This document shows positions 15,157 through 63,801 of a DNA stretch of 64,000 nt, piece by piece; position 1 is the stretch's first letter; every line of letters starts with the position of its first letter. The notes below the pieces were generated by a model that was given only the letters and a program-made list of their open reading frames with translations, did no database searches and had not been told where the DNA came from. The position numbers and the translations under genes were made by a program. The DNA is from Myxococcales bacterium UBA4248 (GTDB lineage: Bacteria > Myxococcota_A > Bradymonadia > UBA4248), in assembly GCA_002395385.1 (NCBI GenBank), contig DGWW01000147.1:1214-65213 (forward strand), given 5' to 3'.

Positions 15157-16272
15157 ATGTTGAATTCTTTGAACAATAATCCCGGGTATGGAAATTTGGA
15201 CGGTATATCCGAAGAAGAAGTTGTCATCAAGGAAGAGTACGAGCCAGAGCCGGATGACTATAACTATGTACCGCAGATTCACGAAGTAGACGAAGCGGAG
15301 ATTCGCAATCTGTCCGCAATCCGCGAAGAGACCCAGGTAGACACCCGTGTCTACAAAGTCAGTGCGGCATTCCTTGTATTGGCACTCATCGGTGGTGGAA
15401 TTGGTCTTGCTGCGGCATCGCACTCTGCCTCCAAGGCAGACATTCAGCGCAAAGCTTCAATTGCCAAAACAATCAAAAATACGACAGAGACCAAGCTGTC
15501 CGGTTTTGACAAGTTCTATTCAGAATTTTCAAAAGTGGCGCAGGCCAACTACGATGAATCGAGCTTCCAAAGTGTCATTGCACAATACAGCAAGTACAAT
15601 TTTATGCTGGACATGTCGAGCGAGGTCACGTCTGAAGCCGTTTTGCTGGCAGGTGAAGCCCAGAATCCGCTCGAAGGTCTGCGTAAATATTCTGCCGACA
15701 CAATGCTTCTGACGCAGCTTTTGAGTTCCCACGTCAACGAGACACGTGCGGACTCGGATGAAATCCTCGAGCTCCAGAGCAAGAGTGACCATTCGAAAGT
15801 TGTATATGCCATGCAGGTTTTGCCGGATGCCATCCATTATCTTGCAACGGATGCCCCGCGTTCCCAGTATGCCAACGGCGTCATCGGCATCTACACCTAT
15901 CGCAGTGTCATCGAAGACGATGTCGAAGCATCGAGTGCATACAGCCAGTTAAAGGTCGATCAGAGATGGTCAGAGTGGCAGCGTTCGCGCCGCGATTATC
16001 AGCCGGCAAACAAGAAAGAGGCCATTCCAGAAGGTCTCGATCTCCCCAATCACCTGCTGTACCGCGTACTCGACCGACGTGGCAACGAATCCTTGCTTTT
16101 TGCAGACGAAGTCATCCTCGTCGACCGTTCTTTGCTCTTCGGCAAGTCGGCAAATGCCCTCGAACGCTACCAGCAGCGCAATGAGATGATCAAAGCCGTG
16201 CTCGATCGTGCAAAATCAGAAAGTGCAAGCATCGTTTCCCAACTCGAATCGTTTATTCCAAAAGATAAGTAA
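15157..16272 (+). CDS. membrane protein of unknown function, paralog A of a tandem pair
   Basis: AGGAGG RBS. One TM (VYKVSAAFLVLALIGGGIGLAAA). The C-terminal 280 aa are homologous to 16366..17667 (NPLEGLRKY.., FADEVILVDRSLLFGKSANALERY). Confidence 0.8.
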   Translation: MLNSLNNNPGYGNLDGISEEEVVIKEEYEPEPDDYNYVPQIHEVDEAEIRNLSAIREETQVDTRVYKVSAAFLVLALIGGGIGLAAASHSASKADIQRKASIAKTIKNTTETKLSGFDKFYSEFSKVAQANYDESSFQSVIAQYSKYNFMLDMSSEVTSEAVLLAGEAQNPLEGLRKYSADTMLLTQLLSSHVNETRADSDEILELQSKSDHSKVVYAMQVLPDAIHYLATDAPRSQYANGVIGIYTYRSVIEDDVEASSAYSQLKVDQRWSEWQRSRRDYQPANKKEAIPEGLDLPNHLLYRVLDRRGNESLLFADEVILVDRSLLFGKSANALERYQQRNEMIKAVLDRAKSESASIVSQLESFIPKDK

Positions 16273-16365
16273 GACCATACGGCACTTCCGTTGCCGTCAC
16301 TCCCTGATATAATCAATTTATTTAGCATTAGACGGATTCGTCCGCCCTTGTTTGCTTAGGAGGGA

Positions 16366-17667
16366 ATGTTGAATTCTTCCAATAACTCAAAGTTCAAGAA
16401 TATCGATGAACTCAAAGCCCGTATGGCTGCCAAAAATAGCGGCGGCGGTGGCGGATTCGGCGGTGGCGCAGGCGGCTTCGGCGGCGGTGGCGGTTTCGGC
16501 GGCGGATTCAGTGGGAAAGTTCCCAAACAATCCAAAGAAATCGTCATTCATGATGAAGATAAAGGCCCAGGGAAAATGTTCGACTTCGATATGGATCAGG
16601 TCGATAAATCCCTCATGCCACCCAAAGATAATACGAAACCTATCATGGTTTGTTTCGTAGGCGTCATCTGCCTCGTTTTCGGATGCTTCATCGGATGGTG
16701 CTGGCAGGGCGTTCTCGCCGATCGCGCGAGCGTTAACGAACGTATCAAAGTCGCAAATGAAGTTGAGGGTCACGTTCAGCCCAAAATCGATGCCTTCCAA
16801 ACTTTTGCACAGGTCTGGAAACAACGCAGCGAATCCCTCGGTGCCGGCGTCCTCGAATACAATCACGACTTCTACAATAACGTCATTAAAACTTATAAAA
16901 GCAAAAACTTTATCCTCGACGTCAGCTCCGACCTGCCCAAAGGTACCATCTCCATGGCCAGCAACTCCGCTCAAAATCCCCTGAGCGACCTCCGCGGCTT
17001 CGGTGCCGGTACCACACTCCTCGGCGCACTCCTCGATTCCCACATTCAGCAGACCGACGCTGATATGGATGAAATCCAGACCCTCCTCGGACAAAGCAGC
17101 GCCACCGACAGACATATCGTCTATGCTCTCAAAGTCGATGCCGCTCAATTGCTCACCCTCACCGAAATGGGCTCCGACCGTTTCCTCAAAGCCTTTACCT
17201 GCACACAAGTTTATCAGGTAAAACGCGCTATCACCGACGATACCGAAGCTAGCAAGATTTTCCAGCAAATGATCGATTCCGGTAAGGTTCCTGCCGATCA
17301 GGTCAAAGCCAGAACTTATTCCGAAGAAGAAGACGTTCAGAAGAAAAAGGCAAAGGAAAAAGCTGCAAAAGCCGCAAAAGCCGGTAAAAAAGTTGACGAA
17401 GTTGCCGAAATCACGACCGATCCCAACCTCGTACTGCCCAAACGTCTCATCTATGAGATCGTCGATAAATCCGGTGCTTCCCAATATGTCTTCGCCGATG
17501 AAGTCATTCTCATCGGACGCGACAAGCTCTTTGCTGAAAGCGCAAACGCCCTTGAGCGCTATCGTAAACGTATGATTCAGATACTGGCCATCCTCGGCGA
17601 AATCGAAAAAACGACCGATGGACTCCAGAACAGACTCCATATCATCGCTACCGAAGAGCCTCTATAA
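16366..17667 (+). CDS. membrane protein of unknown function, paralog B of a tandem pair, with a Gly-rich N-terminus and a Lys-rich insert
   Basis: Nearly the same RBS/start context as paralog A (gcttaggaggg-ATGTTGAATTCTT). One TM. Conserved C-terminal FADEVILIGRDKLFAESANALERY. The antisense ORF 16387..17640 is rejected. Confidence 0.8.
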   Translation: MLNSSNNSKFKNIDELKARMAAKNSGGGGGFGGGAGGFGGGGGFGGGFSGKVPKQSKEIVIHDEDKGPGKMFDFDMDQVDKSLMPPKDNTKPIMVCFVGVICLVFGCFIGWCWQGVLADRASVNERIKVANEVEGHVQPKIDAFQTFAQVWKQRSESLGAGVLEYNHDFYNNVIKTYKSKNFILDVSSDLPKGTISMASNSAQNPLSDLRGFGAGTTLLGALLDSHIQQTDADMDEIQTLLGQSSATDRHIVYALKVDAAQLLTLTEMGSDRFLKAFTCTQVYQVKRAITDDTEASKIFQQMIDSGKVPADQVKARTYSEEEDVQKKKAKEKAAKAAKAGKKVDEVAEITTDPNLVLPKRLIYEIVDKSGASQYVFADEVILIGRDKLFAESANALERYRKRMIQILAILGEIEKTTDGLQNRLHIIATEEPL

Positions 17668-17678
17668 GCTACCTTAAA

Positions 17679-17703
17679 GCCTCTGGAAACAGAGGCTTTT
17701 TTA
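17679..17703 (+). terminator. Rho-independent terminator
   Basis: GCCTCTG-GAAA-CAGAGGC followed by TTTTTT. Confidence 0.7.
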
Positions 17704-17824
17704 TTGCCTGTTTCACATCTTTCTCCCCCGCTTCATTACCGATGATACACACCTCATCGCTTTTCTATTAAAGAGTGGGGCCGGGTTATTTCGCTGCGCT
17801 CAATACACCACGGCCTTCGACGCT

Positions 17825-18421
17825 ATGATATACGCGTCGAATTTTTTATTTGTACCTCGCTCACAAACGGCCAATGCCATGCGTATTCTGTTTTCTGCTC
17901 TCATTTTCCTTACACTTGCCGCCCTATCCCCCGCTATCGCATCTGCACATCCGGATTCTCACGAAATTATTCAGAAAATTGCGCTCGAAGAACTCGCCAT
18001 CACCAATTCCAAACTCCCCATTGCTTTAAAATTGCCCAAAACCTGGAAATCTCAGCCCACCAATGAAAACACACTGATTTTCTGGGTGCCCTACCACAAT
18101 GGTGTGATGGGACATATCGAAAAGAGAGACAATCCCATGTCCTGGAACGATTCAATCTCGTTTCTCTCCGATTTTTTTAAAACCAAATTCAAAGAGGATT
18201 CGAAAGAAACTTTCCAGTTGGAATCGGGGATTCAAGGGGAAAAAGGTACGATTTCCGGCCCCATCGGTGGCGAGGAATACAGGTTATTTGTGTGCGTCGC
18301 CCAATTAGCGGACAACACGGTAATCTTGTATTACGCTTCTGCGCCGATTCTCTGGTTCCAGGCCTACGAACCTTTATTGAATGACATCCTCAAATCTTTC
18401 CAATTGCCCTCTGCCAATTAA
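17825..18421 (+). CDS. hypothetical secreted protein. The start may be the internal M at 17879
   Basis: Signal-peptide-like MRILFSALIFLTLAALSPAIASA. No known domain recognised. Confidence 0.5.
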   Translation: MIYASNFLFVPRSQTANAMRILFSALIFLTLAALSPAIASAHPDSHEIIQKIALEELAITNSKLPIALKLPKTWKSQPTNENTLIFWVPYHNGVMGHIEKRDNPMSWNDSISFLSDFFKTKFKEDSKETFQLESGIQGEKGTISGPIGGEEYRLFVCVAQLADNTVILYYASAPILWFQAYEPLLNDILKSFQLPSAN

Positions 18422-18535: not shown

Positions 18536-19000
18536 CTACCATCCAAACGGCTCTCGCAAGCAGTACGCATTGGGATAATACCGAATTCTCGGCATTTTTT
18601 TTCTGGGTACGATCAGTGCGGCAATATCGCAACGATATACAGCTTTGAGCCTTGCATGGTTACCAATCCACTGTCGGATCGTCGCAGACAATTTGCGTTG
18701 TTTTGCAGCTGTGACATTGAGTTCTGGGGATAGTCCTTCTGCATTTGAACGCGATTTGACCTCGACAAAAACGACAGTCGGATAGCCTTTCAAATCAGCA
18801 TGCATCTTACAGGCAATAATATCGACCTCGCCACGCGGCGTTTCATAATTGCGCGCAAGGATGCTCCAACCGCGATTTTTTAAATAATGTATGACCAAAT
18901 TCTCTGCACTGCGACCAACTCGTCTTGCAGCCGTCAAAAAACGATAATGCGGTGTCCAGAATTGCCTCTGATGTAAGTGTTTGTGAGTTTGTTTGTTCAT
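18536..19000 (-). CDS. yraN: YraN-family (UPF0102) PD-(D/E)xK endonuclease-like protein
   Basis: ...GEVDIIACK...VVFVEVKSRSN... Start MNKQTHK at 19000 with an AGGAGG RBS. The listed ORF extends 14 codons further upstream without an RBS. Confidence 0.65.
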   Translation of the reverse strand: MNKQTHKHLHQRQFWTPHYRFLTAARRVGRSAENLVIHYLKNRGWSILARNYETPRGEVDIIACKMHADLKGYPTVVFVEVKSRSNAEGLSPELNVTAAKQRKLSATIRQWIGNHARLKAVYRCDIAALIVPRKKMPRIRYYPNAYCLREPFGW

Positions 19001-19014
19001 TCTTTTCCTCCTTT

Positions 19015-19205
19015 GTCCACAAGTTATCCACAGGATTATCACCCCCCTTGTGCAAAATCAGGCGAGTCAAGCAGAAAAACTTCTTTCTCTAAAAATATAT
19101 TTTTCCTTTTAAATACAGTAGTTTACGAAAATTGATTCAATTTTATCCTTGACAGGGTTTTCATCCGTTCATCCACAGTTTAAATTGCCATCCTGTGGAT
19201 AAGTT
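19015..19205. promoter_or_regulatory. cluster of DnaA-box-like 9-mers flanking an AT-rich stretch
   Basis: TTATCCACA at about 19024 and, on the reverse strand, at about 19194 (TGTGGATAA). Variants TTATCCTTG (19143), TTCATCCGT and TTCATCCACA (19160-19177). AT-rich block 19081-19150. Hairpin CATCCACAG...CCTGTGGATAAG. Confidence 0.5.
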
Positions 19206-19235
19206 GTGCACATTTGGGGAACTTGTGTACTTTTG

Positions 19236-21173
19236 CTAGGGTAAAAACCGAATATGCAAGCAGGAAATGCCTTGCGACTTCAAAATGGGCGAAGTTTGTT
19301 CAAAGAGTCCCCCGACATCCTCTTCGTGCACCATTTGAGGGAAAACCGCTGCCGTATAAATTTGTCGTACAAAACTGCGCAACACGAGCGAATTGGCTTT
19401 CTTTTTCTTAAGAAGCTCCCACATCCCCGCATAATGTTTTCTCATAGTCGCAACATTGCAGGAAAAAGCAGATTCCATTTTTTGAGAGGTTACAATCACT
19501 CTTGGATTATCCGGAACATCCGCAGGTGAGATGGGCACCCATCTGCCCTGAGTTTTGCCCCATAAATGCGGCATTCCCAATGTTCGACAGATGATCATTT
19601 CGTCCAATCGGAGCACCATTTTGCGCGTTTTCCACGTGTTCTGCAGTTCTTCGCGCGCCTGAATTTTAGATTCAAAATGCGCCTGATAGGTTTCAATTTC
19701 ATCACTCTGATCGCGCGCTCTAAAAGTGACAATTCGTATTTGATCATGCTTCTGCCCCTTTCGAATCAGGCGCCCGTTTCTCTGTTGGATCAGCACCGGA
19801 TTCCATGGCAAATCAAAATGTATGATTGCGCATGCCCTCTGAAAATTTTGTCCGCAGGAAAAGGCATCCGTACAAATCAATATTCGGGCCATTTTCTGCC
19901 CGGTTCTATCCCACCATTCAGGCATCTTCAGGTCGGGGTTGAACATCGCCATGAGCAAATTGGCATCGATTTCGTAATGATTTAACCGTGCAGTTCCCGA
20001 TGTGAGCAGCCCCACACGTCCCAATTCCGAAAGCGACTTCTCTAAAATGCGCGCAGTATCACAGTATTGTGTAAAAATGACGATCTGCTCATCCTCATCC
20101 ATCGTTCGAATCCATGCCTTGAGGCGATGCAGTTTTTCATCCGGTTCATGCTTGCAAATCCATTCCAATTCGTGAACAACAGAACCAATTTGATCCAGAA
20201 TCTCGTTTAGATGAAACTGCCCCGTCTGCACTTCCCGCGTTCCTTTGCCCAAAGGCAAACATAACTGCCTGCCCTCTATGCCCATCATTTTATAAAAAGC
20301 TTTGCGCGTCATCAGACGATCCTCCGGATTGAGCGCACAAATCCTATAAAACCTCGCAATTTTTTTAAGACTGCACAAACAGGCTTCGCGATGACTGAAC
20401 AGACGATGTAACAACAAATTCCGTATGAGATGCAGCTCCACGGCCCCAGTCGATGTCTGAACCAGCCACGGAACGGTCTGGATCTGTTCGATAACCCTTT
20501 GAATTCCTGATTGACATGGGCTGATTGCATACACAATCTCACAATTCTGACATCCGAACAGTCCCTCCGGCATGAGCCTCATCACCAGCGTCTGCGGACG
20601 AATGGCATTGGCAAAACTCCTCAGCCATGCATTATCCTTGATGCAATCGGGAAATCCGCACAATGACATGAGCGCCCTTAGATCTGCCCAGGACAGACTA
20701 ACCGGTGTTGCCGTAATCAGGCACACCCGATGGCGAGCAGTCCAGACGCGCAAATGGCGGTGACGAAGCGTTGCGGGATTTTTTAATAGATGCGCTTCAT
20801 CCAAAATCCATAGGCTGTCCGGCACTTTTGGACAGTCAATCCTCTCAAGACTCACCATCTGATAGGAATAGAATGAAGCTTCAACCCCAAATATCGTCAA
20901 TACCCTGCGCCAGTGATCCTGCAAATGCGCTGGCGCAGCAACGACAATGTGTACGTCCGGATTGGTTTGCATATACCACGCTGCAAGTGCGGACACGACG
21001 AATGTTTTGCCTGTTCCGGTGGACTCATCCACAAGAACTGCACGATGATTGCTCAGGATTTCACAGCATGCCTGTAACGTTCTTTGCTGAGGTACTGTCA
21101 GCAAATCAAGTATTTCTGCCCCAACGGGAGGTGGTGTTTCGCGGTCTTCCAGGTACTGTCGTATGCAATCCAT
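19236..21173 (-). CDS. SNF2-family helicase/ATPase
   Basis: Motif I DESTGTGKT, motif II DEAH, motif III LITATPV. Helicase-C motifs ...ILICTDAFSCGQNFQ...HFDLPWNPVLIQQRNGRLIRKGQ. Begins 8 bp after the methyltransferase stop, so it is in an operon. Confidence 0.9.
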   Translation of the reverse strand: MDCIRQYLEDRETPPPVGAEILDLLTVPQQRTLQACCEILSNHRAVLVDESTGTGKTFVVSALAAWYMQTNPDVHIVVAAPAHLQDHWRRVLTIFGVEASFYSYQMVSLERIDCPKVPDSLWILDEAHLLKNPATLRHRHLRVWTARHRVCLITATPVSLSWADLRALMSLCGFPDCIKDNAWLRSFANAIRPQTLVMRLMPEGLFGCQNCEIVYAISPCQSGIQRVIEQIQTVPWLVQTSTGAVELHLIRNLLLHRLFSHREACLCSLKKIARFYRICALNPEDRLMTRKAFYKMMGIEGRQLCLPLGKGTREVQTGQFHLNEILDQIGSVVHELEWICKHEPDEKLHRLKAWIRTMDEDEQIVIFTQYCDTARILEKSLSELGRVGLLTSGTARLNHYEIDANLLMAMFNPDLKMPEWWDRTGQKMARILICTDAFSCGQNFQRACAIIHFDLPWNPVLIQQRNGRLIRKGQKHDQIRIVTFRARDQSDEIETYQAHFESKIQAREELQNTWKTRKMVLRLDEMIICRTLGMPHLWGKTQGRWVPISPADVPDNPRVIVTSQKMESAFSCNVATMRKHYAGMWELLKKKKANSLVLRSFVRQIYTAAVFPQMVHEEDVGGLFEQTSPILKSQGISCLHIRFLP

Positions 21174-21181
21174 AGCTCACC

Positions 21182-24157
21182 TCATGCACAGCGAAGATGG
21201 GCACTTGCCATGTATTTTTCAATCAGCACATCAATCTGCTGTGTGACTGCGCTGCACTCTGACTTCATGGAGTGACATTGCTTAGAAAGTTCAATCATTT
21301 CCTTCACTTCATCGGATTGTGTGTCTTCCCCAAAACACCAGGGCAGCCCCTCAATGACCCAGGCAAAAAATCTTCGGTAATTGTTCTGGGCATGTTCCGC
21401 GCGACGACTACAATAATCACGGGCAAATGAAGAATTCAGATAGGCTGACAGGAGATACCCGACATCGCGCGATCTGACAGCAATGTAATAAACGGTATTC
21501 AATGGAATAATGCCGGATTCCTCCACGAAACACGCTTCAATCGTGTGTGCAATATCGCGCCAGACCACCTTCGGAAAGGCCAAATGATGCGACACACCAA
21601 ACAAAGAATGACTGCATTTGCGCCCAAGTCCCTTTCGTGCAAGCAATCCCTCCCTGTTCTGTTCAAACCAGCGCTCTGCACAAGGAGGCAATTGCCCAAG
21701 TACCTCCATTCCTCGATCAAATGCATGGGTAAACACAATTTCCCTTTCTGTTCGATACCCATACGCCCGAATATCAGCACCTCTCAACGCGGGATGTATC
21801 AGCATTCGCTCGATCTCAATCGGCTCAGAACGAGTTCTCATCCGCGCCAGCACCAAATGACCTGCAGCCATGGTCTCGGCGGGTATGAAGATGTCATTCG
21901 CCCCGGTACAGACACCTCTTTTCACTGTAAAAAAGTCGCCGATCGTACCATTCAGGGAAGACGGGTTCTTCAAAATGAGCTCCGGACGCGGCGATGGCTT
22001 TGTCTTCTGAGATACAAATGTCGGCTGTATTTCGGTCCTGCACAAAATCAAAGTTGTCGGATATGCAGCAGCCGCAAATGTATTGCATTTCGAATGAGAC
22101 AAATCCTGAATGGACATAATCACAGTATGCGAAGCAATATGGTTTCTGAAACTCTCATAGGACGGAGCATTGAATAATTTGTTCGGAACGATCATGGCAA
22201 TCAGTCCATTCGATCGCGCACATCGAATCGCTTTTTCAATAAAAAGCGCACTCACATCGGAGGATTGCGCTTTCGTCCCCCGAATGGGAATCGCCGTCTG
22301 ATAAAGCACACGAAGGGCATTTTGTGCAGAATCGGGCATGGTGTGCAGCGAAAACCACGGAGGATTCCCCAAAACCATATCAAAACCACCCTGCTCGAGA
22401 ATGTCCCCAAAATGAATTTCAAAACTGAATCCCGGAACAAGCCCAAACTCCAGATAATTCCTGAACTTAACCTTTTGTGCTTCGAGTACCGCCAGATGCT
22501 TCTGGTCCCGGACCGAAATCTGTGCTTTTCCAAACAACGCCCCTTGCACACTTCGGTACTGCCGGCATGCATCATCACACTGCGCAATCATCTGCGACAT
22601 CATCTGTGCGCTCATTCGCTGCAGATTCAGTTCGATCTGTTTGGCTAGTTTTTTCTTAGTTGGCCCCGACGAAAGCCGATAACGATGTTTCAGGTGACTG
22701 ATCTCCTGAATACATGGCAAATCGCGTTTAGGTACCCCCAGTATTTTTGCCAGCTGGCCACATTCGACCAGTGCATCACCACACTGAATGTTGACATCGA
22801 GATTTGGTAGTGAAGGAATATCCTCAGTCTTGTCAAAATATTGCATCAGCTCAAGCCATAGCCGCAGTTCACAGATTTGCCTGGCCGCTGGCACAATATC
22901 CACGCCGTACAAATTCCTCGATAAAATCTGCCTGGCTAAACTCCCCGCAGATTCCGCATGAGAATAGCGATTTTGCAATCCCGTTCGAATACGATGCAAA
23001 AGGCTCAGTGAACACTGCAAAAAAGAGCCGCTGCCAGCTGCCGGATCGAGAATCGATAGCTTCGAGAGCCGTTCTTCAATCTTTTGGGCTGCTTCCGGCC
23101 CAATATCACCATACGCATCCCTCAACAGAATCCCATCAATTTGTGCCTCCGACAACGCCGTTTCATTCCGGAACCATTGACGAAAGACATCCAGCACCAC
23201 CTTCCTCGCCATTGGAATCGGCGTATAGTAAGACCCTGTCGCATTTCGATTATCTTTGCGCATCAGGGTCTCAAACACATGACCGAGCATGAGCGGATCG
23301 AGCGACAAAGCATGATTCGACTGTGAATGATGGGTTGTCAGTGCATAACGGCCAAATAATTCCCCCAAAATTTCAATCCAAATCTCATTGGGCGCCGTCA
23401 AATGCGGAGAACGCAATTCATGCCCACCCGGCGTGAACAAACCGCCATTTAAAAATGGGATTTTTCCAAACTTGCGAACGCGCTGGGTACGCCTGTGTGG
23501 GGCACGATTGAGCGTCTCGAAAAAGAGCGGCTGCAAAAAATCACCATAGATGGATCCACCGCCATCCCGGCATTTGCGCGCCTCTGCAACCAAAAAATCC
23601 GATCGATTATCCAAAATCCCGCGAGCCTCAAGGAATGCCGTAAAAAACAACCTCAAAAGGGTATCCAATGCAAGCTGATGCCGGATTTCATGCGTATCAT
23701 TTGTAATATTCTGCCAACTTTCAGCGAGTTTGTGACAATAATGCTTAAAAGAAGCAACAAATTTCTGTTCCAAACGCCGTTTCCCAAATTTGCGATCGAG
23801 CTCAAACACAAATTCCAGATAGGTTGACAAATCTCCTAGTTCAGCCAATTCCTCATTATTTTCCCACGCCACATCGTTGGCCACAATGGGGGATGCATCA
23901 AACACTGACTGTGCATAGATATCGATGACACATTTACCCGGGTAATCGATGATCACAACCGAATCTGGGTGCGTTTGCAGAAATCGGTGAATTCGACTTA
24001 TGACTGGCGCCGCCTCAGCACCAAAGACATAGATCTCCATACACGTCCCAACGGCCTTAAATGCACTGACGACATTCGTAATTTCAGCCTCTGCCAACTC
24101 AACAATACTGGCATGCCATGCATTGCGGACAAAATCGACGAGCCCCTTGTGTTCCAT
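21182..24157 (-). CDS. large N6-adenine DNA methyltransferase of the Eco57I/MmeI/PglX-like gamma class, with a helical N-domain and a C-terminal TRD
   Basis: FLNGGLF and GSYYTP motifs, SAM motif I LDPAAGSGSFL, motif IV NPPW, C-terminal TaqI_C-like specificity region. 991 aa. Confidence 0.9.
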   Translation of the reverse strand: MEHKGLVDFVRNAWHASIVELAEAEITNVVSAFKAVGTCMEIYVFGAEAAPVISRIHRFLQTHPDSVVIIDYPGKCVIDIYAQSVFDASPIVANDVAWENNEELAELGDLSTYLEFVFELDRKFGKRRLEQKFVASFKHYCHKLAESWQNITNDTHEIRHQLALDTLLRLFFTAFLEARGILDNRSDFLVAEARKCRDGGGSIYGDFLQPLFFETLNRAPHRRTQRVRKFGKIPFLNGGLFTPGGHELRSPHLTAPNEIWIEILGELFGRYALTTHHSQSNHALSLDPLMLGHVFETLMRKDNRNATGSYYTPIPMARKVVLDVFRQWFRNETALSEAQIDGILLRDAYGDIGPEAAQKIEERLSKLSILDPAAGSGSFLQCSLSLLHRIRTGLQNRYSHAESAGSLARQILSRNLYGVDIVPAARQICELRLWLELMQYFDKTEDIPSLPNLDVNIQCGDALVECGQLAKILGVPKRDLPCIQEISHLKHRYRLSSGPTKKKLAKQIELNLQRMSAQMMSQMIAQCDDACRQYRSVQGALFGKAQISVRDQKHLAVLEAQKVKFRNYLEFGLVPGFSFEIHFGDILEQGGFDMVLGNPPWFSLHTMPDSAQNALRVLYQTAIPIRGTKAQSSDVSALFIEKAIRCARSNGLIAMIVPNKLFNAPSYESFRNHIASHTVIMSIQDLSHSKCNTFAAAAYPTTLILCRTEIQPTFVSQKTKPSPRPELILKNPSSLNGTIGDFFTVKRGVCTGANDIFIPAETMAAGHLVLARMRTRSEPIEIERMLIHPALRGADIRAYGYRTEREIVFTHAFDRGMEVLGQLPPCAERWFEQNREGLLARKGLGRKCSHSLFGVSHHLAFPKVVWRDIAHTIEACFVEESGIIPLNTVYYIAVRSRDVGYLLSAYLNSSFARDYCSRRAEHAQNNYRRFFAWVIEGLPWCFGEDTQSDEVKEMIELSKQCHSMKSECSAVTQQIDVLIEKYMASAHLRCA

Positions 24158-24190
24158 GGTTCATTCTCCCTGATGTGTTTTGAGTCACAC

Positions 24191-24236
24191 TCATTATATG
24201 GGCAATTTTTGACAAAAACGGCCAAAAAAAATGCAT
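24191..24236. promoter_or_regulatory. 45 bp dyad-symmetric promoter-region element, copy 1 of 3
   Basis: TATATGGGCAATTTTTGACAAAAACGGCCAAAAAAAATGCAT, 35-80 bp upstream of the methyltransferase start codon. On the minus strand it carries TATAAT. Copies 2 and 3 are at 47300 and 55841. Confidence 0.6.
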
Positions 24237-24261
24237 CAGGGTACTTTTTTTTATTTGCCGG

Positions 24262-24335
24262 GCTTTTCGGCTTTGCCTCAATACGCCCGGCCGCGTCCGC
24301 TATTGCCGTGGGCAATACGCGTCCGCCACCTTTTT
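24262..24335. repeat. REP-like palindromic repeat
   Basis: ..CAATACGCCCGGCC..GCTATTGCC-GTG-GGCAATACGCG.. Confidence 0.55.
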
Positions 24336-24371
24336 GACTCACAGTTCACGATTTTTAGCCCGGAACAAAAT

Positions 24372-24398
24372 AAAAAAAACGCCCCGATTTGGGGCGTC
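24372..24398 (-). terminator. Rho-independent terminator for the minus-strand gene 24416..26179
   Basis: CGCCCCG-ATTT-GGGGCG followed by an 8 nt T-run on the minus strand. Confidence 0.7.
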
Positions 24399-24415
24399 TT
24401 CTCATTCTATTGCGT

Positions 24416-26179
24416 CTAATGAATGGGCTTTTCGGCGACAAAAATATTTTTAGGACTGGTCGCACCAAAGTAAGCACCTGGGAGTGAATAATCACCGCTC
24501 AATTCGACGACGCTAAATCCGGCTCGCATCAGTAATGCACGCATTTCAGTAATCGAGTAGAGCCTGATTTGAATCTTCTGTTCCCAGGGTGGACGCTTAG
24601 GATCATCAAATACGAAGGATCTCTGAACATTGAGGAAACCAGTCAATTGTTCAATATCAATTTCCTCGAGCAGCATGCACTCTTTGCCTTTCCACCATAA
24701 CCGCAAGGGAAGATCATCGACGATGAAATCGCGGTTCATGGTTTCAATGAGAAAGACACCACCCGGTTTAAGTGCATTAAAGATCCCCTGAAGGACTTTA
24801 AAGTTACTCAATTCGTCGAAATAGCCGAAGCTTGTATCGACATTGTAAATTGCATCAAAAATAGCCTTAAACGTCAGCTTTCTCATATCGCCGTGGACAA
24901 ACTTAATGGCTTGTCCTCTTGCCTGAGCATCGGCAAGTGCTTTTTTGAGCATGACCATCGAAAGATCGAGGCCGACCATATCAAACCCCTTCGAAGCCAG
25001 TTCAATGGTATGGCGACCATACCCACAGCACAGGTCGAGGACGCGCGCCCCCGATTCGATACCGAGACGATCGATGATAAATCTGGCTTCCCGGGCCGAC
25101 TGACGCGGCATACTCTTGGGAATAGTCCTGAAGTAGTCTTCATTAAATACTTTAGAATACCAATTATTATCGGGATGCTTAAAGGCAGCGAGATCTTTGC
25201 CTTCATCCAGTTTGCCGCCCGGTAGCAGATCGTTGATCGCATCCACGGTCATGACAAACTCGCCATCCTTAAGTACCCTGGCATTGGGCGCGGGTGCAGC
25301 TGCGACAGGAGGCATCGGCGGAAGCCCGGGCGGGCGTTTATTGGGCCCCGACTGAGGCGCGGCACTCACAGGAACGGACGTTCTTTCGGAAGAAGTTTCG
25401 GCCTCCAAAGCAGGCTTTTCAGAGGGAGCCGCAGGAACCTCAGGTAATCTTTCTGGTTTTTCTACTGGAATCGGTCTGAGTCCAGAATCCGTCTTTGCCT
25501 TTTCTTTCTCTGGCTTCGTTTTTTCCGATTTCGCCTTTTCCTTCAGCGTCTTATCGGTAAATTTCGTATCAAATGGTTTAATGGACGCTATCGGTTTGGC
25601 ATTCGAAATCGGTGTCGTTTCAGGAGCTTTATCGTCAGATGCTGTCGATTGGACTACCTCTTTTGCAGGTGCAGCTTCTTTCGCAGCGACGGGTTCTCTA
25701 ACCTGAATCTCTTTAGCCGTAGCAGCTTCTTCAGGTGTATCCGCCACAGGTTCTGTTTCTGCAAGTACAGTAGCTCTATCGAATCTCTGCGTGACTTCTT
25801 CTTCGATATCCGTATCGTCTTCCTCTTCATCCTCGATCGCAGCTTCGTCAGAGGTATCAGCCAAATCCCGATCGTCGGCTTCAGCTAGGGAGATCTCTTC
25901 CTTATCTGTCTCATTCCCCTTCGAAGCGTAATCCGATGCGCTGGCTGGTTCAAACCCCGGAGGCGGAGCGACAGCAGGAAGCGACGGATACGTTGCCAAT
26001 GCTTCAAAATTACTCGACGAAGTCAATATGTTGACCAGAGAGCGATTGACTGGTGACGAAGCCGTAGGAGGTGGCACAAAATCGTCGTCATCATCCTCAA
26101 GATCTTTAAGCAATTCTGCGGCATCTGGATCGTAAGAAGCATTGCCGGTATTAGCCATATCTTTGTTTTCCTTATCCAT
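24416..26179 (-). CDS. class I SAM-dependent methyltransferase with a long acidic/Pro-rich disordered N-terminal region
   Basis: C-terminal motif I VLDLCCGYGRHTIELASKGFDMVGLDLS (Methyltransf_11/25-like). The N-terminal 350 aa are low-complexity D/E/P/A-rich. Confidence 0.8.
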   Translation of the reverse strand: MDKENKDMANTGNASYDPDAAELLKDLEDDDDDFVPPPTASSPVNRSLVNILTSSSNFEALATYPSLPAVAPPPGFEPASASDYASKGNETDKEEISLAEADDRDLADTSDEAAIEDEEEDDTDIEEEVTQRFDRATVLAETEPVADTPEEAATAKEIQVREPVAAKEAAPAKEVVQSTASDDKAPETTPISNAKPIASIKPFDTKFTDKTLKEKAKSEKTKPEKEKAKTDSGLRPIPVEKPERLPEVPAAPSEKPALEAETSSERTSVPVSAAPQSGPNKRPPGLPPMPPVAAAPAPNARVLKDGEFVMTVDAINDLLPGGKLDEGKDLAAFKHPDNNWYSKVFNEDYFRTIPKSMPRQSAREARFIIDRLGIESGARVLDLCCGYGRHTIELASKGFDMVGLDLSMVMLKKALADAQARGQAIKFVHGDMRKLTFKAIFDAIYNVDTSFGYFDELSNFKVLQGIFNALKPGGVFLIETMNRDFIVDDLPLRLWWKGKECMLLEEIDIEQLTGFLNVQRSFVFDDPKRPPWEQKIQIRLYSITEMRALLMRAGFSVVELSGDYSLPGAYFGATSPKNIFVAEKPIH

Positions 26180-63663: not shown

Positions 63664-63801
63664 GTTCTGTATAACGAGAGTGTGGATAAGCTCTGAGCTT
63701 AGAGCTTAGAGCTTAGAGTGATGAACCCCTTCTCCAAGCGCCAAGCCAGAATGGGGTTATTCGACAGTAAAAAACTCCACACTCGTTAAACCGGGCCAAG
63801 C

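What the first reader, a model, noticed from the sequence alone, without database searches (positions are those of the whole stretch)
19236..24240. Two-gene operon: Eco57I/MmeI-like N6-adenine methyltransferase plus SNF2 helicase, a candidate non-canonical defence system
A 991-aa gamma-class adenine methyltransferase is followed 8 bp later by a bare SNF2 ATPase. The methyltransferase carries FLNGGLF, YYTP, LDPAAGSGSFL and NPPW motifs plus a TaqI_C-like TRD. The helicase carries DESTGTGKT, DEAH and helicase-C motifs.

This pairing fits none of the systems I can compare it to:
- Type I-III R-M systems: it has no HsdS/HsdR and no Res.
- BREX: it has no PglZ, BrxC or BrxL.
- DISARM: it has no DrmA, DrmB or DrmC.
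- Type ISP enzymes: these have the same domains, but fused into one polypeptide.

Methyltransferase-plus-SNF2 is the minimal shared core of DISARM class 1 (DrmMI plus DrmD). It could therefore be a split ISP-like restriction enzyme or a reduced DISARM-like module. The N-terminal 140 aa of the methyltransferase are unassigned. An MmeI-type nuclease would sit there, but no clear PD-ExK motif is seen.
Basis: partly seen in the sequence, partly recalled or inferred. Interest (0 to 1): 0.78.

Follow-up and report, generated by a model that had tools for sequence, protein, structure and literature searches.

The report
Methyltransferase plus SNF2 motor gene pair
A large DNA adenine methyltransferase whose nuclease domain appears to be dead is always encoded just before an SNF2 DNA motor (and, in this bacterial lineage, a small YraN nuclease), a little-studied relative of restriction-modification systems that here looks vertically inherited rather than mobile.

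Summary
A 991-aa gamma-class N6-adenine methyltransferase (21182-24157, minus strand) is followed 8 bp later by a 645-aa SNF2 ATPase (19236-21173). All catalytic motifs are intact in both.

The pairing is not chance. 76 of 88 related loci have an SNF2 gene. In most it lies directly 3' of the methyltransferase; in four distant loci it is separated or upstream. Ten of the other twelve loci simply run out of DNA. No BREX, DISARM, ARMADA or Type I/III partner is nearby.

- **Precedent.** Nuclease-less MmeI-like methyltransferases flanked by a helicase and a small nuclease were described in 2009 (B. subtilis YeeA/DnmA-YeeB-YeeC). In Vibrio, yeeAB protects against phage.
- **A nuclease gene.** A distinct YraN/UPF0102 subfamily with an intact PD-(D/E)xK site follows the SNF2 gene in every member of this clade. 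A conserved DnaA-box cluster separates the two genes.
- **Context.** The genes sit among housekeeping genes. They keep their position and diverge in step with their neighbours, which is unlike a mobile defence island.

The methyltransferase N-terminus models as an Hjc-like nuclease fold with no conserved catalytic residues.

Best reading: a split, Type I-like methyltransferase/motor/nuclease module. Whether it defends the cell or serves host DNA metabolism is open. I class it as a new variant of a known kind.

The parts
24373..24403 (-). Intrinsic terminator of the upstream 587-aa gene. It marks the 5' boundary of the methyltransferase-SNF2 transcription unit.
   Evidence: 13-bp stem with 6 GC pairs followed by a T-run.
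24158..24372 (-). Leader/promoter region of the operon. It contains a perfect TATAAT at about 24192-24197 and a GGGAGA ribosome-binding site before the ATG at 24157.
   Evidence: Read from the sequence. The promoter is inferred; the scanner did not call it.
23783..24157 (-). Methyltransferase residues 1-125: a fast-evolving alpha/beta N-terminal domain with a weak Hjc/restriction-endonuclease-like fold and no conserved catalytic residues. Presumed docking domain.
23108..23782 (-). Methyltransferase residues 126-350: MmeI-like helical spacer, including the PFLNGGLF and GSYYTP (motif X) elements.
   Evidence: Pfam MmeI_hel/DUF7814, weak. The PDB profile aligns MmeI 189-429 to residues 170-440, E 7e-17. 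Invariant residues R168 to P312.
21998..23107 (-). Methyltransferase residues 351-720: gamma-class N6-adenine methyltransferase catalytic domain. Motif I is LDPAAGSG and motif IV is NPPW. A variable insert spans 471-585.
   Evidence: Pfam Eco57I 6e-24 and MmeI_Mtase 3e-9. D370, G374, S375, G376 and N597, P598, P599, W600 are invariant in 34 sequences.
21182..21997 (-). Methyltransferase residues 721-991: a single TaqI/BseCI/CamA-type target-recognition domain plus C-terminal tail.
   Evidence: The profile match to M.BseCI covers 600-996 at 4.6e-32; CamA scores 6e-24. Pfam TaqI_C is weak.
21174..21181 (-). 8-nt spacer (GGTGAGCT) carrying a Shine-Dalgarno-like sequence, consistent with translational coupling. 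Homologues often overlap by 1-4 nt instead.
   Evidence: Overlapping stop/start codons are seen in L003, L005, L008, L172 and L177.
19236..21173 (-). SNF2-family dsDNA translocase, 645 aa. Lobe 1 is about aa 28-200 (GxGKT, DEAH), lobe 2 about aa 345-500 (QRxGRxxRxGQ). A clade-specific, non-catalytic C-terminal domain spans about 510-645.
   Evidence: Pfam. Invariant helicase motifs in 25 sequences. PDB profile best hit RapA at 3e-34. AlphaFold2 pLDDT 84, with Foldseek hits to ISW1, Chd1, CSB, Ino80, ZorD and RapA.
19001..19235 (.). Conserved DnaA-box cluster between SNF2 and yraN. Two double boxes form a 32-nt inverted repeat (19005-19036 and 19190-19221) around a 153-nt AT-rich spacer. Perfect TTATCCACA boxes lie at 19024-19032 and 19194-19202.
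   Evidence: The same junction carries 20 of the 22 perfect boxes in 10 trio loci. GC skew does not flip here.
18536..19000 (-). YraN/UPF0102 PD-(D/E)xK endonuclease, 154 aa from the ATG at 19000. It belongs to a specialised subfamily strictly linked to the methyltransferase-SNF2 pair in this clade. It is the candidate nuclease partner; membership in the system is inferred.
   Evidence: Pfam UPF0102 9e-22. Catalytic E58, D60 and E80-V-K82 are intact, with a clade-specific N-extension, a 6-aa insert and a C-terminal FGW. Linkage is shown.

Best explanation
This is a split, Type I-like (YeeA/YeeB/YeeC-like) methyltransferase-motor module.

**Proposed mechanism**
1. The 991-aa protein is a single-chain gamma-class m6A methyltransferase with one TRD. 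It probably reads one short, possibly asymmetric, site and methylates adenine there.
2. Its N-terminal domain is a catalytically dead relic of the Type IIG/IIL nuclease domain. I infer that it now serves as the docking surface for the SNF2 ATPase, which is co-translated from the same mRNA.
3. On unmodified sites the methyltransferase-bound SNF2 motor would hydrolyse ATP and translocate dsDNA.
4. In the window's clade, the strictly co-inherited YraN-type PD-(D/E)xK endonuclease (canonical YraN is an ssDNA endonuclease that works with a helicase) would supply cleavage. In the wider family (Gemmatimonadota, Acidobacteriota and others) no nuclease is linked, so there the output would be non-nucleolytic or use an unlinked nuclease.

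**Shown here**
- Gene structure.
- Intact catalytic motifs in all three proteins.
- A fold-level nuclease relic without catalytic residues.
- Near-universal methyltransferase-SNF2 linkage.
- Clade-wide YraN linkage.

**Inferred**
- Physical complex formation.
- Coupling of methylation state to translocation.
- Cleavage by YraN.
- The biological target, phage DNA versus host DNA.
For: - **Linkage.** SNF2 was detected in 76 of 88 methyltransferase-relative loci, directly 3' on the same strand in most. Ten of the 12 without it lack downstream DNA.
- **Coupling.** There is an 8-nt gap or overlapping stop/start codons.
- **Own operon.** The pair is bounded by a strong terminator upstream.
- **Catalytic motifs.** They are invariant in the methyltransferase and in SNF2.
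- **N-domain.** It has an Hjc/RE-like fold but no conserved D/E/K. This matches Morgan et al. [quoted passage not shown]
- **YraN subfamily.** It has an intact E-x-D...E-V-K site and clade-specific insertions. It is found behind methyltransferase-SNF2 in every locus with context, in at least three different flanking contexts.
- **YraN biochemistry.** Canonical YraN is an ssDNA endonuclease that acts with a helicase (bioRxiv 10.1101/2024.02.06.579203).
- **Analogue.** A yeeAB pair confers phage resistance in Vibrio crassostreae (bioRxiv 10.1101/2021.05.05.442762).
Against: - **Context looks housekeeping, not defence.** Neighbours include PS decarboxylase, kinases, PNPase/S15, PhoU and P-type ATPases. 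No integrase, no other defence genes and no compositional anomaly were seen.
- **Position and divergence track the neighbours.** Methyltransferase identity is 85/48/41%, against PSD 90/57/48%. The same holds within Gemmatimonadales. This points to long vertical inheritance.
- **No close relative on plasmids or viral contigs**.
- **The TRD is no more divergent than the rest of the protein**, so there is no specificity swapping.
- **yraN may be the genome's ordinary housekeeping copy.** It is separated from SNF2 by a 235-nt spacer holding a DnaA-box cluster.
- **Most of the family has no linked nuclease.**
- **The B. subtilis analogue shows no restriction or phage defence** (PMC7261158, PMC9973331).
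- **No interaction, methylation motif or phenotype could be tested here.**
Confidence: 0.45

Rival explanations
1. Domesticated epigenetic or chromosome-maintenance module. The methyltransferase acts as an orphan chromosomal m6A writer. The SNF2 motor gives it access to, or processivity on, protein-covered DNA, a bacterial analogue of DDM1/LSH helping DNA methyltransferases. It could alternatively clear proteins at marked sites. In the window's clade this would be tied to DnaA- and YraN-dependent replication or recombination transactions rather than to defence.
For: - Conserved position and co-divergence with housekeeping neighbours across deep splits.
- No linked nuclease in most of the family.
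- Uniform TRD conservation.
- Absence from plasmids and viruses.
- A conserved DnaA-box cluster at the SNF2 3' end, even in L005/L006, which lack yraN.
- B. subtilis DnmA works as an orphan regulator and localises near the replisome (PMC7261158, PMC9973331).
- YraN's known role is in recombination (bioRxiv 10.1101/2024.02.06.579203).
Against: - Both proteins evolve faster than their neighbours. SNF2 is 38% identical where PSD is 57% and d433 is 67%. This is more typical of conflict genes.
- Architecture and closest HMMs are restriction-type: Type IIG 5e-39.
- A related yeeAB pair is phage-protective.
- The trio is absent from some related lineages that keep the PSD-587-aa gene synteny, L092 and L093. 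It is therefore dispensable.
Confidence: 0.3
2. BREX-like non-nucleolytic exclusion. Methyltransferase plus SNF2 alone block replication of unmethylated invading DNA without cutting it. The yraN adjacency would be incidental.
For: - The two-gene form is the conserved core across phyla.
- PglX/BrxHII-type proteins are the nearest defence relatives after Type IIG.
- Neither protein has a catalytic nuclease residue set.
Against: - No PglZ or BrxC is present.
- PglX HMM scores are far below cut-off, 77 against 500.
- The strict yraN linkage and the specialised YraN subfamily in this clade are left unexplained.
- The same context arguments apply as against any defence role.
Confidence: 0.12
3. Remnant of a larger DISARM class 1 or ARMADA system that lost its YprA/DrmAB helicase. 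The pair would be decaying or only methylating.
For: - The SNF2 plus PglX-like methyltransferase pair is the module shared by DISARM I and ARMADA (bioRxiv 10.1101/2025.09.15.676423).
- DrmD is the best PADLOC hit for the helicase, 8.5e-25.
Against: - Scores are far below family cut-offs.
- Similarity to ArmA/ArmB is at motif level only.
- Gene order is opposite to that of the distant relatives found in viral contigs, most of which have SNF2 upstream of the methyltransferase.
- The pair is intact, under purifying selection and conserved as a pair across several phyla, with no YprA or DUF1998 gene nearby. That is not the pattern of a recent remnant.
Confidence: 0.06

Closest known systems
B. subtilis DnmA(YeeA)-YeeB-YeeC and Vibrio yeeAB: MmeI homologues lacking the nuclease motif, flanked by a helicase and a small nuclease-like protein (PMC2731913, PMC7261158, PMC9973331, bioRxiv 10.1101/2021.05.05.442762)
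   Same: - The gene order is the same: methyltransferase, then SF2 helicase, then a small nuclease-fold protein.
- The methyltransferase keeps the MmeI-like helical spacer and the N-terminal part of the catalytic domain but lacks PD-ExK catalytic residues.
- It is a single-chain methyltransferase with its own TRD and no second methyltransferase.
- Function is ambiguous in both: phage-protective in Vibrio, orphan-like in B. subtilis.
   Different: - The C-terminal half is BseCI/CamA/TaqI-type, not the MmeI TRD plus C-domain.
- The third gene is a YraN PD-(D/E)xK protein rather than a GIY-YIG/T5orf172 YeeC, and it is absent outside this clade.
- The locus is chromosomally fixed among housekeeping genes, not on a horizontally acquired island.
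- Direct sequence comparison with YeeA/YeeB was not possible with the collections available.
DISARM class 1 DrmD + DrmMI, and ARMADA ArmA + ArmB
   Same: An SNF2-family ATPase is encoded next to a large PglX/Eco57I-like adenine methyltransferase. NPPW and the Walker motifs are essential in ARMADA (bioRxiv 10.1101/2025.09.15.676423).
   Different: - No DrmA/DrmB/DrmC or YprA-like ArmC, and no ArmD.
- Proteins are much smaller: 991 aa against 1300-1640, and 645 aa against about 950-1040.
- HMM scores are far below cut-offs.
- BLASTP to ArmA/ArmB aligns only the helicase lobe 2 and the methyltransferase motifs.
- The gene order is reversed relative to ArmA-ArmB.
Type ISP (LlaGI/LlaBIII) and Type IIL/IIG (MmeI, BpuSI) restriction-modification enzymes
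   Same: The domain logic is the same: nuclease-fold N-terminus, helical spacer, gamma-class methyltransferase and a single TRD. Type ISP adds an ATP motor. The best PADLOC hit is the Type IIG family.
   Different: - Here the motor is a separate SNF2-family protein, whereas Type ISP uses a fused Type I-like helicase (from my own knowledge, not tested).
- The nuclease-fold domain has lost its catalytic residues.
- Any cleavage would have to be supplied in trans.
ComM-YraN helicase/nuclease pair of natural transformation (bioRxiv 10.1101/2024.02.06.579203)
   Same: A YraN-family PD-(D/E)xK endonuclease is genetically coupled to a DNA motor protein.
   Different: - The motor is an SNF2 ATPase, not ComM.
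- A methyltransferase is part of the unit.
- This YraN is a divergent subfamily with an N-terminal extension, an internal insert and a C-terminal FGW.

Membership tests
YeeA/DnmA-YeeB-YeeC-type system | MmeI-homologous methyltransferase that lacks the N-terminal PD-ExK catalytic motif | tested here: met
   MmeI aligns to residues 170-440 at E 7e-17. Pfam MmeI_Mtase scores 3e-9. The N-domain has no conserved D/E/K despite an Hjc-like fold.
YeeA/DnmA-YeeB-YeeC-type system | MmeI-type TRD and C-terminal domain (DnmA is 38% identical to MmeI, PMC7261158) | tested here: not met
   The C-terminal half matches M.BseCI (4.6e-32) and CamA (6e-24), not MmeI. Pfam gives TaqI_C, not MmeI_TRD or MmeI_C.
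YeeA/DnmA-YeeB-YeeC-type system | SF2 helicase gene immediately downstream of the methyltransferase | tested here: met
   8-nt gap in the window. An SNF2 gene was detected in 76 of 88 loci, directly downstream on the same strand in most.
YeeA/DnmA-YeeB-YeeC-type system | Third gene encoding a GIY-YIG/T5orf172 YeeC protein | tested here: not met
   The third gene is UPF0102/YraN with a PD-(D/E)xK site. There is no third gene in the Gemmatimonadota, Planctomycetota or CG2_30 loci.
YeeA/DnmA-YeeB-YeeC-type system | Direct sequence homology to B. subtilis YeeA and YeeB | not testable with these tools
DISARM class 1 | DrmA helicase plus DrmB (DUF1998) core genes, with or without DrmC (PLD) | tested here: not met
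   None were found among the ORFs of the 64-kb window scanned with Pfam or PADLOC: the nine ORFs around the pair plus twenty of the other ORFs of at least 250 aa. None were found in the homologue neighbourhoods.
DISARM class 1 | DrmD and DrmMI equivalog-level similarity | tested here: not met
   NCBIfam DISARM_DrmD scores 98 bits against a cut-off of 610. PADLOC DrmMI scores 5e-20 over the catalytic core only.
ARMADA I/II | YprA-family helicase (ArmC) in the operon; ArmA/ArmB orthology | tested here: not met
   No YprA or DUF1998 gene in the window. BLASTP to EDL933 ArmA gives 35% over 138 aa only, and to ArmB 26% over 176 aa only.
BREX | PglZ and BrxC/PglY present; PglX-family methyltransferase | tested here: not met
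   No PglZ or BrxC. BREX_1_MTaseX scores 77 bits against a cut-off of 500.
Type IIG/IIL (MmeI, Eco57I) restriction-modification enzyme | Catalytic PD-(D/E)xK nuclease domain fused N-terminal to the methyltransferase | tested here: not met
   The fold is retained only weakly, and the catalytic residues are not conserved in either the close clade or the Gemmatimonadota.
Type ISP | Nuclease, helicase, methyltransferase and TRD in one polypeptide | tested here: not met
   Two separate ORFs in all loci.
Type I / Type III R-M | HsdS and HsdR, or Mod and Res | tested here: not met
   No such genes in the window or in homologue loci. ResIII is only a weak sub-threshold hit to the SNF2 lobe 1.
SNF2-family ATPase | Two RecA-like lobes with SNF2 motifs I, II (DEAH), III, V and VI, and SNF2-type helical insertions | tested here: met
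   Pfam SNF2-rel_dom and Helicase_C. Motifs are invariant. RapA scores 3e-34. Foldseek prob 1.00 to ISW1, Chd1, CSB, Ino80, ZorD and RapA.
YraN/UPF0102 | PF02021 match above threshold and PD-(D/E)xK catalytic residues | tested here: met
   77.7 bits against a cut-off of 23.6. E58, D60 and E80-V-K82 are conserved. The NCBIfam YraN equivalogs are below cut-off, 82.9 against 109, which fits a divergent subfamily.

The most novel reading that the evidence does not exclude
The methyltransferase-SNF2 pair is not a defence system. In this reading it is an anciently fixed bacterial chromatin-style epigenetic module: a DNA methyltransferase served by its own SNF2 remodeler.

In the Myxococcota-like clade it would be physically and functionally coupled to a DnaA-box cluster and to a specialised YraN nuclease. 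That would link adenine methylation to DnaA-controlled replication or recombination transactions.
Probability: 0.2. Interest if true: 0.8.

Novelty: new variant of a known kind. Interest (0 to 1): 0.5.

Why it matters
- **An understudied class.** Nuclease-less MmeI-like methyltransferases with a helicase partner were flagged in 2009 as frequent but uncharacterised. The only tested cases give contradictory answers: defence in Vibrio, orphan regulator in B. subtilis.
- **A clean minimal form.** This family is a methyltransferase plus a bona fide SNF2 motor. It recurs in many Gemmatimonadota and Acidobacteriota MAGs and in Myxococcota-like MAGs. It is vertically inherited, and one clade adds a dedicated YraN nuclease and a DnaA-box cluster.
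- **A useful test case.** It could show how an SNF2 motor is coupled to methylation state. That mechanistic gap is shared with DISARM, ARMADA and BREX.
- **A broader question.** It could also show whether such modules have been domesticated for host DNA transactions.

Tried and rejected
1. **oriC at the DnaA-box cluster.** Rejected. GC skew does not change sign across it in the window or in the other loci tested.
2. **The upstream 587-aa class-I SAM methyltransferase (PADLOC mad2 4e-21) as part of the system.** Rejected. A strong terminator separates it. It stays next to PS decarboxylase in relatives that lack the trio.
3. **A mobile element.** No integrase, no flanking direct repeats, no GC anomaly, and no close relatives in plasmids or viral contigs.
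4. **A nuclease hidden in the SNF2 C-terminal domain.** No invariant residue occurs after R471. The model could not be searched by domain.
5. **An active variant nuclease in the methyltransferase N-domain.** D79 and D/E95 are only semi-conserved, and no lysine is present. The Gemmatimonadota N-domains have no conserved polar residues.
6. **A sigma-70 promoter for yraN.** My hand-picked TTGACT/GATAAT pair has a 24-nt spacer and the scanner found nothing, so no promoter is claimed.
7. **The afdb50 fold library** was unavailable.
8. **Rfam and tandem-repeat scans** found nothing relevant.
9. **Direct comparison with YeeA/YeeB** was not possible because the sequences were not retrievable.
Full report
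**1. Observation**

The two ORFs are exactly as reported: 21182..24157(-) of 991 aa and 19236..21173(-) of 645 aa. They are 8 nt apart, TGA-GGTGAGCT-ATG, with a Shine-Dalgarno-like GAGGTGA.

Every quoted motif is present. Pfam gives Eco57I (6e-24), MmeI_Mtase (3e-9) and weak MmeI_hel, DUF7814 and TaqI_C for the first protein. It gives SNF2-rel_dom and Helicase_C for the second.

A 13-bp-stem intrinsic terminator at 24403-24373(-) closes the upstream gene. The pair is therefore its own transcription unit.

**2. Surroundings**

The window is ordinary bacterial chromosome. It carries PS decarboxylase, several Ser/Thr kinases, RecD2, DnaX, YidC, an ABC exporter, a prolyl oligopeptidase and two tRNAs.

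- There is no integrase, no YprA/DUF1998, PglZ, BrxC, HsdR/S or Res gene, and no GC anomaly.
- Of the neighbouring proteins, only the generic SAM-methyltransferase domain of the upstream 587-aa protein hits PADLOC.
- The nearest public relative is a 'Proteobacteria bacterium' MAG at 85% methyltransferase identity. The next genome hit is a 'Myxococcales' MAG at 36%.

**3. The pairing is real and widespread**

I examined neighbourhoods of homologues at 85, 48, 41, 36, 33, 30 and 28% identity. All show methyltransferase then SNF2, often with overlapping stop and start codons, and always among housekeeping genes.

A scan of one genome per species returned at least 575 relatives. Among the best 80 plus the earlier loci:

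- 76 of 88 have an SNF2 gene, directly 3' on the same strand in most.
- 10 of the 12 without it have no DNA left downstream.
- The list is dominated by Gemmatimonadota, with Thermoanaerobaculia/Acidobacteriota and delta/Myxococcota-like MAGs.
- In the most distant hits (cyanobacteria, CPR) extra genes intervene, or the helicase lies upstream.
- A Nostoc plasmid example sits in a true defence island, as methyltransferase + 2 hypotheticals + a 1097-aa helicase.

In viral-contig relatives (22-30% identity) the order is mostly SNF2 then methyltransferase.

**4. The proteins**

*Methyltransferase*
- Motif X (GSYYTP), motif I (DPAAGSG) and motif IV (NPPW) are invariant across 34 sequences from several phyla.
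- A profile search of the PDB aligns MmeI only to residues 170-440 (7e-17).
- Residues 600-996 match M.BseCI (4.6e-32) and CamA.
- The protein is therefore a hybrid: an MmeI-like front half with a BseCI/CamA/TaqI-type TRD.

*Methyltransferase N-terminus (residues 1-125)*
- This is the fastest-evolving part.
- AlphaFold2 (pLDDT 87) gives an alpha/beta domain followed by helices.
- Foldseek's top hits are all Hjc resolvases (prob 0.85-0.97, E about 7e-3).
- No acidic or lysine residue is invariant, either in the close clade or in the Gemmatimonadota.
- I read this as a degenerate nuclease domain, as Morgan et al. described for YeeA-type MmeI homologues (PMC2731913).

*SNF2*
- All helicase motifs are invariant.
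- The best solved relative is RapA (3e-34).
- The AlphaFold2 model (pLDDT 84) matches ISW1, Chd1, CSB, Ino80, ZorD and RapA motors.
- The C-terminal 135 aa are clade-specific and have no invariant residues.

**5. A third gene and a DnaA-box cluster**

Downstream lies a UPF0102/YraN gene. Its real start is the ATG at 19000, giving 154 aa. Its relatives form a tight subfamily:

- 49-88% identity among themselves and 135-177 aa long.
- An N-terminal extension, a 6-aa insert and a C-terminal FGW.
- An intact E-x-D...E-V-K site.
- Canonical 112-123-aa YraNs are at most 43% identical.

Every member with known context follows a methyltransferase-SNF2 pair. This holds in at least three different flanking contexts. 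Relatives that keep the PS-decarboxylase/587-aa gene synteny but lack the pair also lack yraN at that position.

Canonical YraN is an ssDNA endonuclease that co-evolved with, and works with, the ComM helicase (bioRxiv 10.1101/2024.02.06.579203). A motor-nuclease partnership is therefore plausible. It is also possible that this is simply the lineage's housekeeping yraN.

The 235-nt SNF2-yraN spacer holds two double DnaA boxes. They form a 32-nt inverted repeat around a 153-nt AT-rich stretch.

- Across ten trio loci (about five independent lineages), 20 of 22 perfect TTATCCACA boxes lie in this junction.
- In 1 Mb of other loci, the only two perfect boxes sit at the SNF2 3' end of L005/L006, which lack yraN.
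- GC skew does not flip, so this is not oriC.

**6. Evolutionary mode**

Methyltransferase, SNF2 and YraN identities fall in step with those of flanking genes. For example, in L002/L090 the values are methyltransferase 48%, SNF2 38%, YraN 58%, PSD 57% and d433 67%. Within Gemmatimonadales the pair also stays between the same neighbours at 54% and 44-47% identity.

The TRD is not hypervariable. No close relative is on a plasmid. This pattern is vertical inheritance with somewhat accelerated evolution, which is unusual for defence islands.

**7. Comparison with known systems**

- HMMs for DrmD (98 bits against 610), PglX (77 against 500), DpdE, ZorD and RapA are all far below cut-off. PADLOC's best hit is generic Type IIG.
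- I retrieved the experimentally validated ARMADA II pair from E. coli EDL933. It shares only the helicase lobe 2 and the methyltransferase motifs with this pair.
- The closest architectural precedent is DnmA(YeeA)-YeeB-YeeC. That system shows no restriction in B. subtilis (PMC7261158, PMC9973331), but yeeAB is protective in Vibrio (bioRxiv 10.1101/2021.05.05.442762).
- This family differs from that precedent in TRD type, in the third gene and in genomic context.

**8. Verdict**

This is a real, conserved methyltransferase-SNF2 module, with YraN added in this clade. It is best explained as a split Type I-like/YeeAB-like system (confidence 0.45). A serious rival is that it has been domesticated for host DNA transactions (0.30).

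It is a new variant of a known kind. Interest is moderate (0.5). The DnaA-box/YraN linkage is its most unexpected feature.

Noticed in passing
window 19001-19235 (also L001, L002, L004, L008, L009, L090, L095, L172, L175 and L005/L006): A conserved DnaA-box cluster lies at the 3' end of the SNF2 gene. The core is a tandem double box, TTGTGCACAAC-TTATCCACAGG. In the window two such double boxes form a 32-nt inverted repeat around a 153-nt AT-rich spacer. There is no GC-skew switch, so it is probably a DnaA-regulated or DnaA-titrating site rather than oriC.
   Followed up: partly
SNF2 homologues P0124-P0137 (alignment A3, C-termini): Many SNF2 homologues end in ...(I/V)HKLSTG. This is simply the translation of CAYAAGTTATCCACAGG. 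In those genomes the ORF runs through the conserved DnaA box, whereas in the window the box lies about 35 nt after the stop codon.
   Followed up: yes
window 24416-26179 (-): A 587-aa protein has a C-terminal class-I SAM methyltransferase domain (Methyltransf_25 5e-19) and an unassigned N-terminal region of about 360 aa. It is always next to PS decarboxylase in this lineage, including in relatives that lack the methyltransferase-SNF2-YraN trio. The N-terminal part varies in length (466-590 aa proteins).
   Followed up: partly
window 15157-18421 (+): Three lineage-specific genes (371, 433 and 198 aa) have no Pfam, NCBIfam or PADLOC hit. They are conserved downstream of yraN in L001, L002, L008, L090 and L095. 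The 433-aa ORF is fully overlapped by a 417-aa antisense ORF (16387-17640), which is presumably spurious.
   Followed up: no
window 1-64000: GC skew of the + strand is negative from about 7 kb to 58 kb and turns slightly positive around 59-62 kb. A third perfect DnaA box is at 63681-63689, and yidC and dnaX are nearby. The true origin may lie near or beyond the right end of the window.
   Followed up: no
L177 6060-7000 (Planctomycetota MAG): Downstream of the SNF2 gene is an array of long repeats rich in GTTCAACGT/TTCAACTTTGAAGT. No DnaA boxes are present there.
   Followed up: no
L005 14330-14450 (Deltaproteobacteria CG2_30_63_29): Three tandem copies of about 44 bp (CACACGCCATAGGGTAGGCACGGGGCCTGCCCGAT) lie in the non-coding stretch after the SNF2/DnaA-box region.
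   Followed up: no
L171 (Nostoc sp. UHCC 0926 plasmid pn2) 7987-16635: A distant relative (24.5% identity) sits in an HTH + 1095-aa methyltransferase + two hypotheticals + 1097-aa helicase cluster. It lies inside an obvious defence island containing viperin, EVE, NucS and UvrD genes. This may be a larger sister system.
   Followed up: no
L116-L170 (viral contigs): In almost all viral-contig loci, methyltransferases 22-30% identical to this one have an SNF2 gene about 1.4-3.5 kb upstream. That order (SNF2 then methyltransferase) is the reverse of the order in this family.
   Followed up: partly
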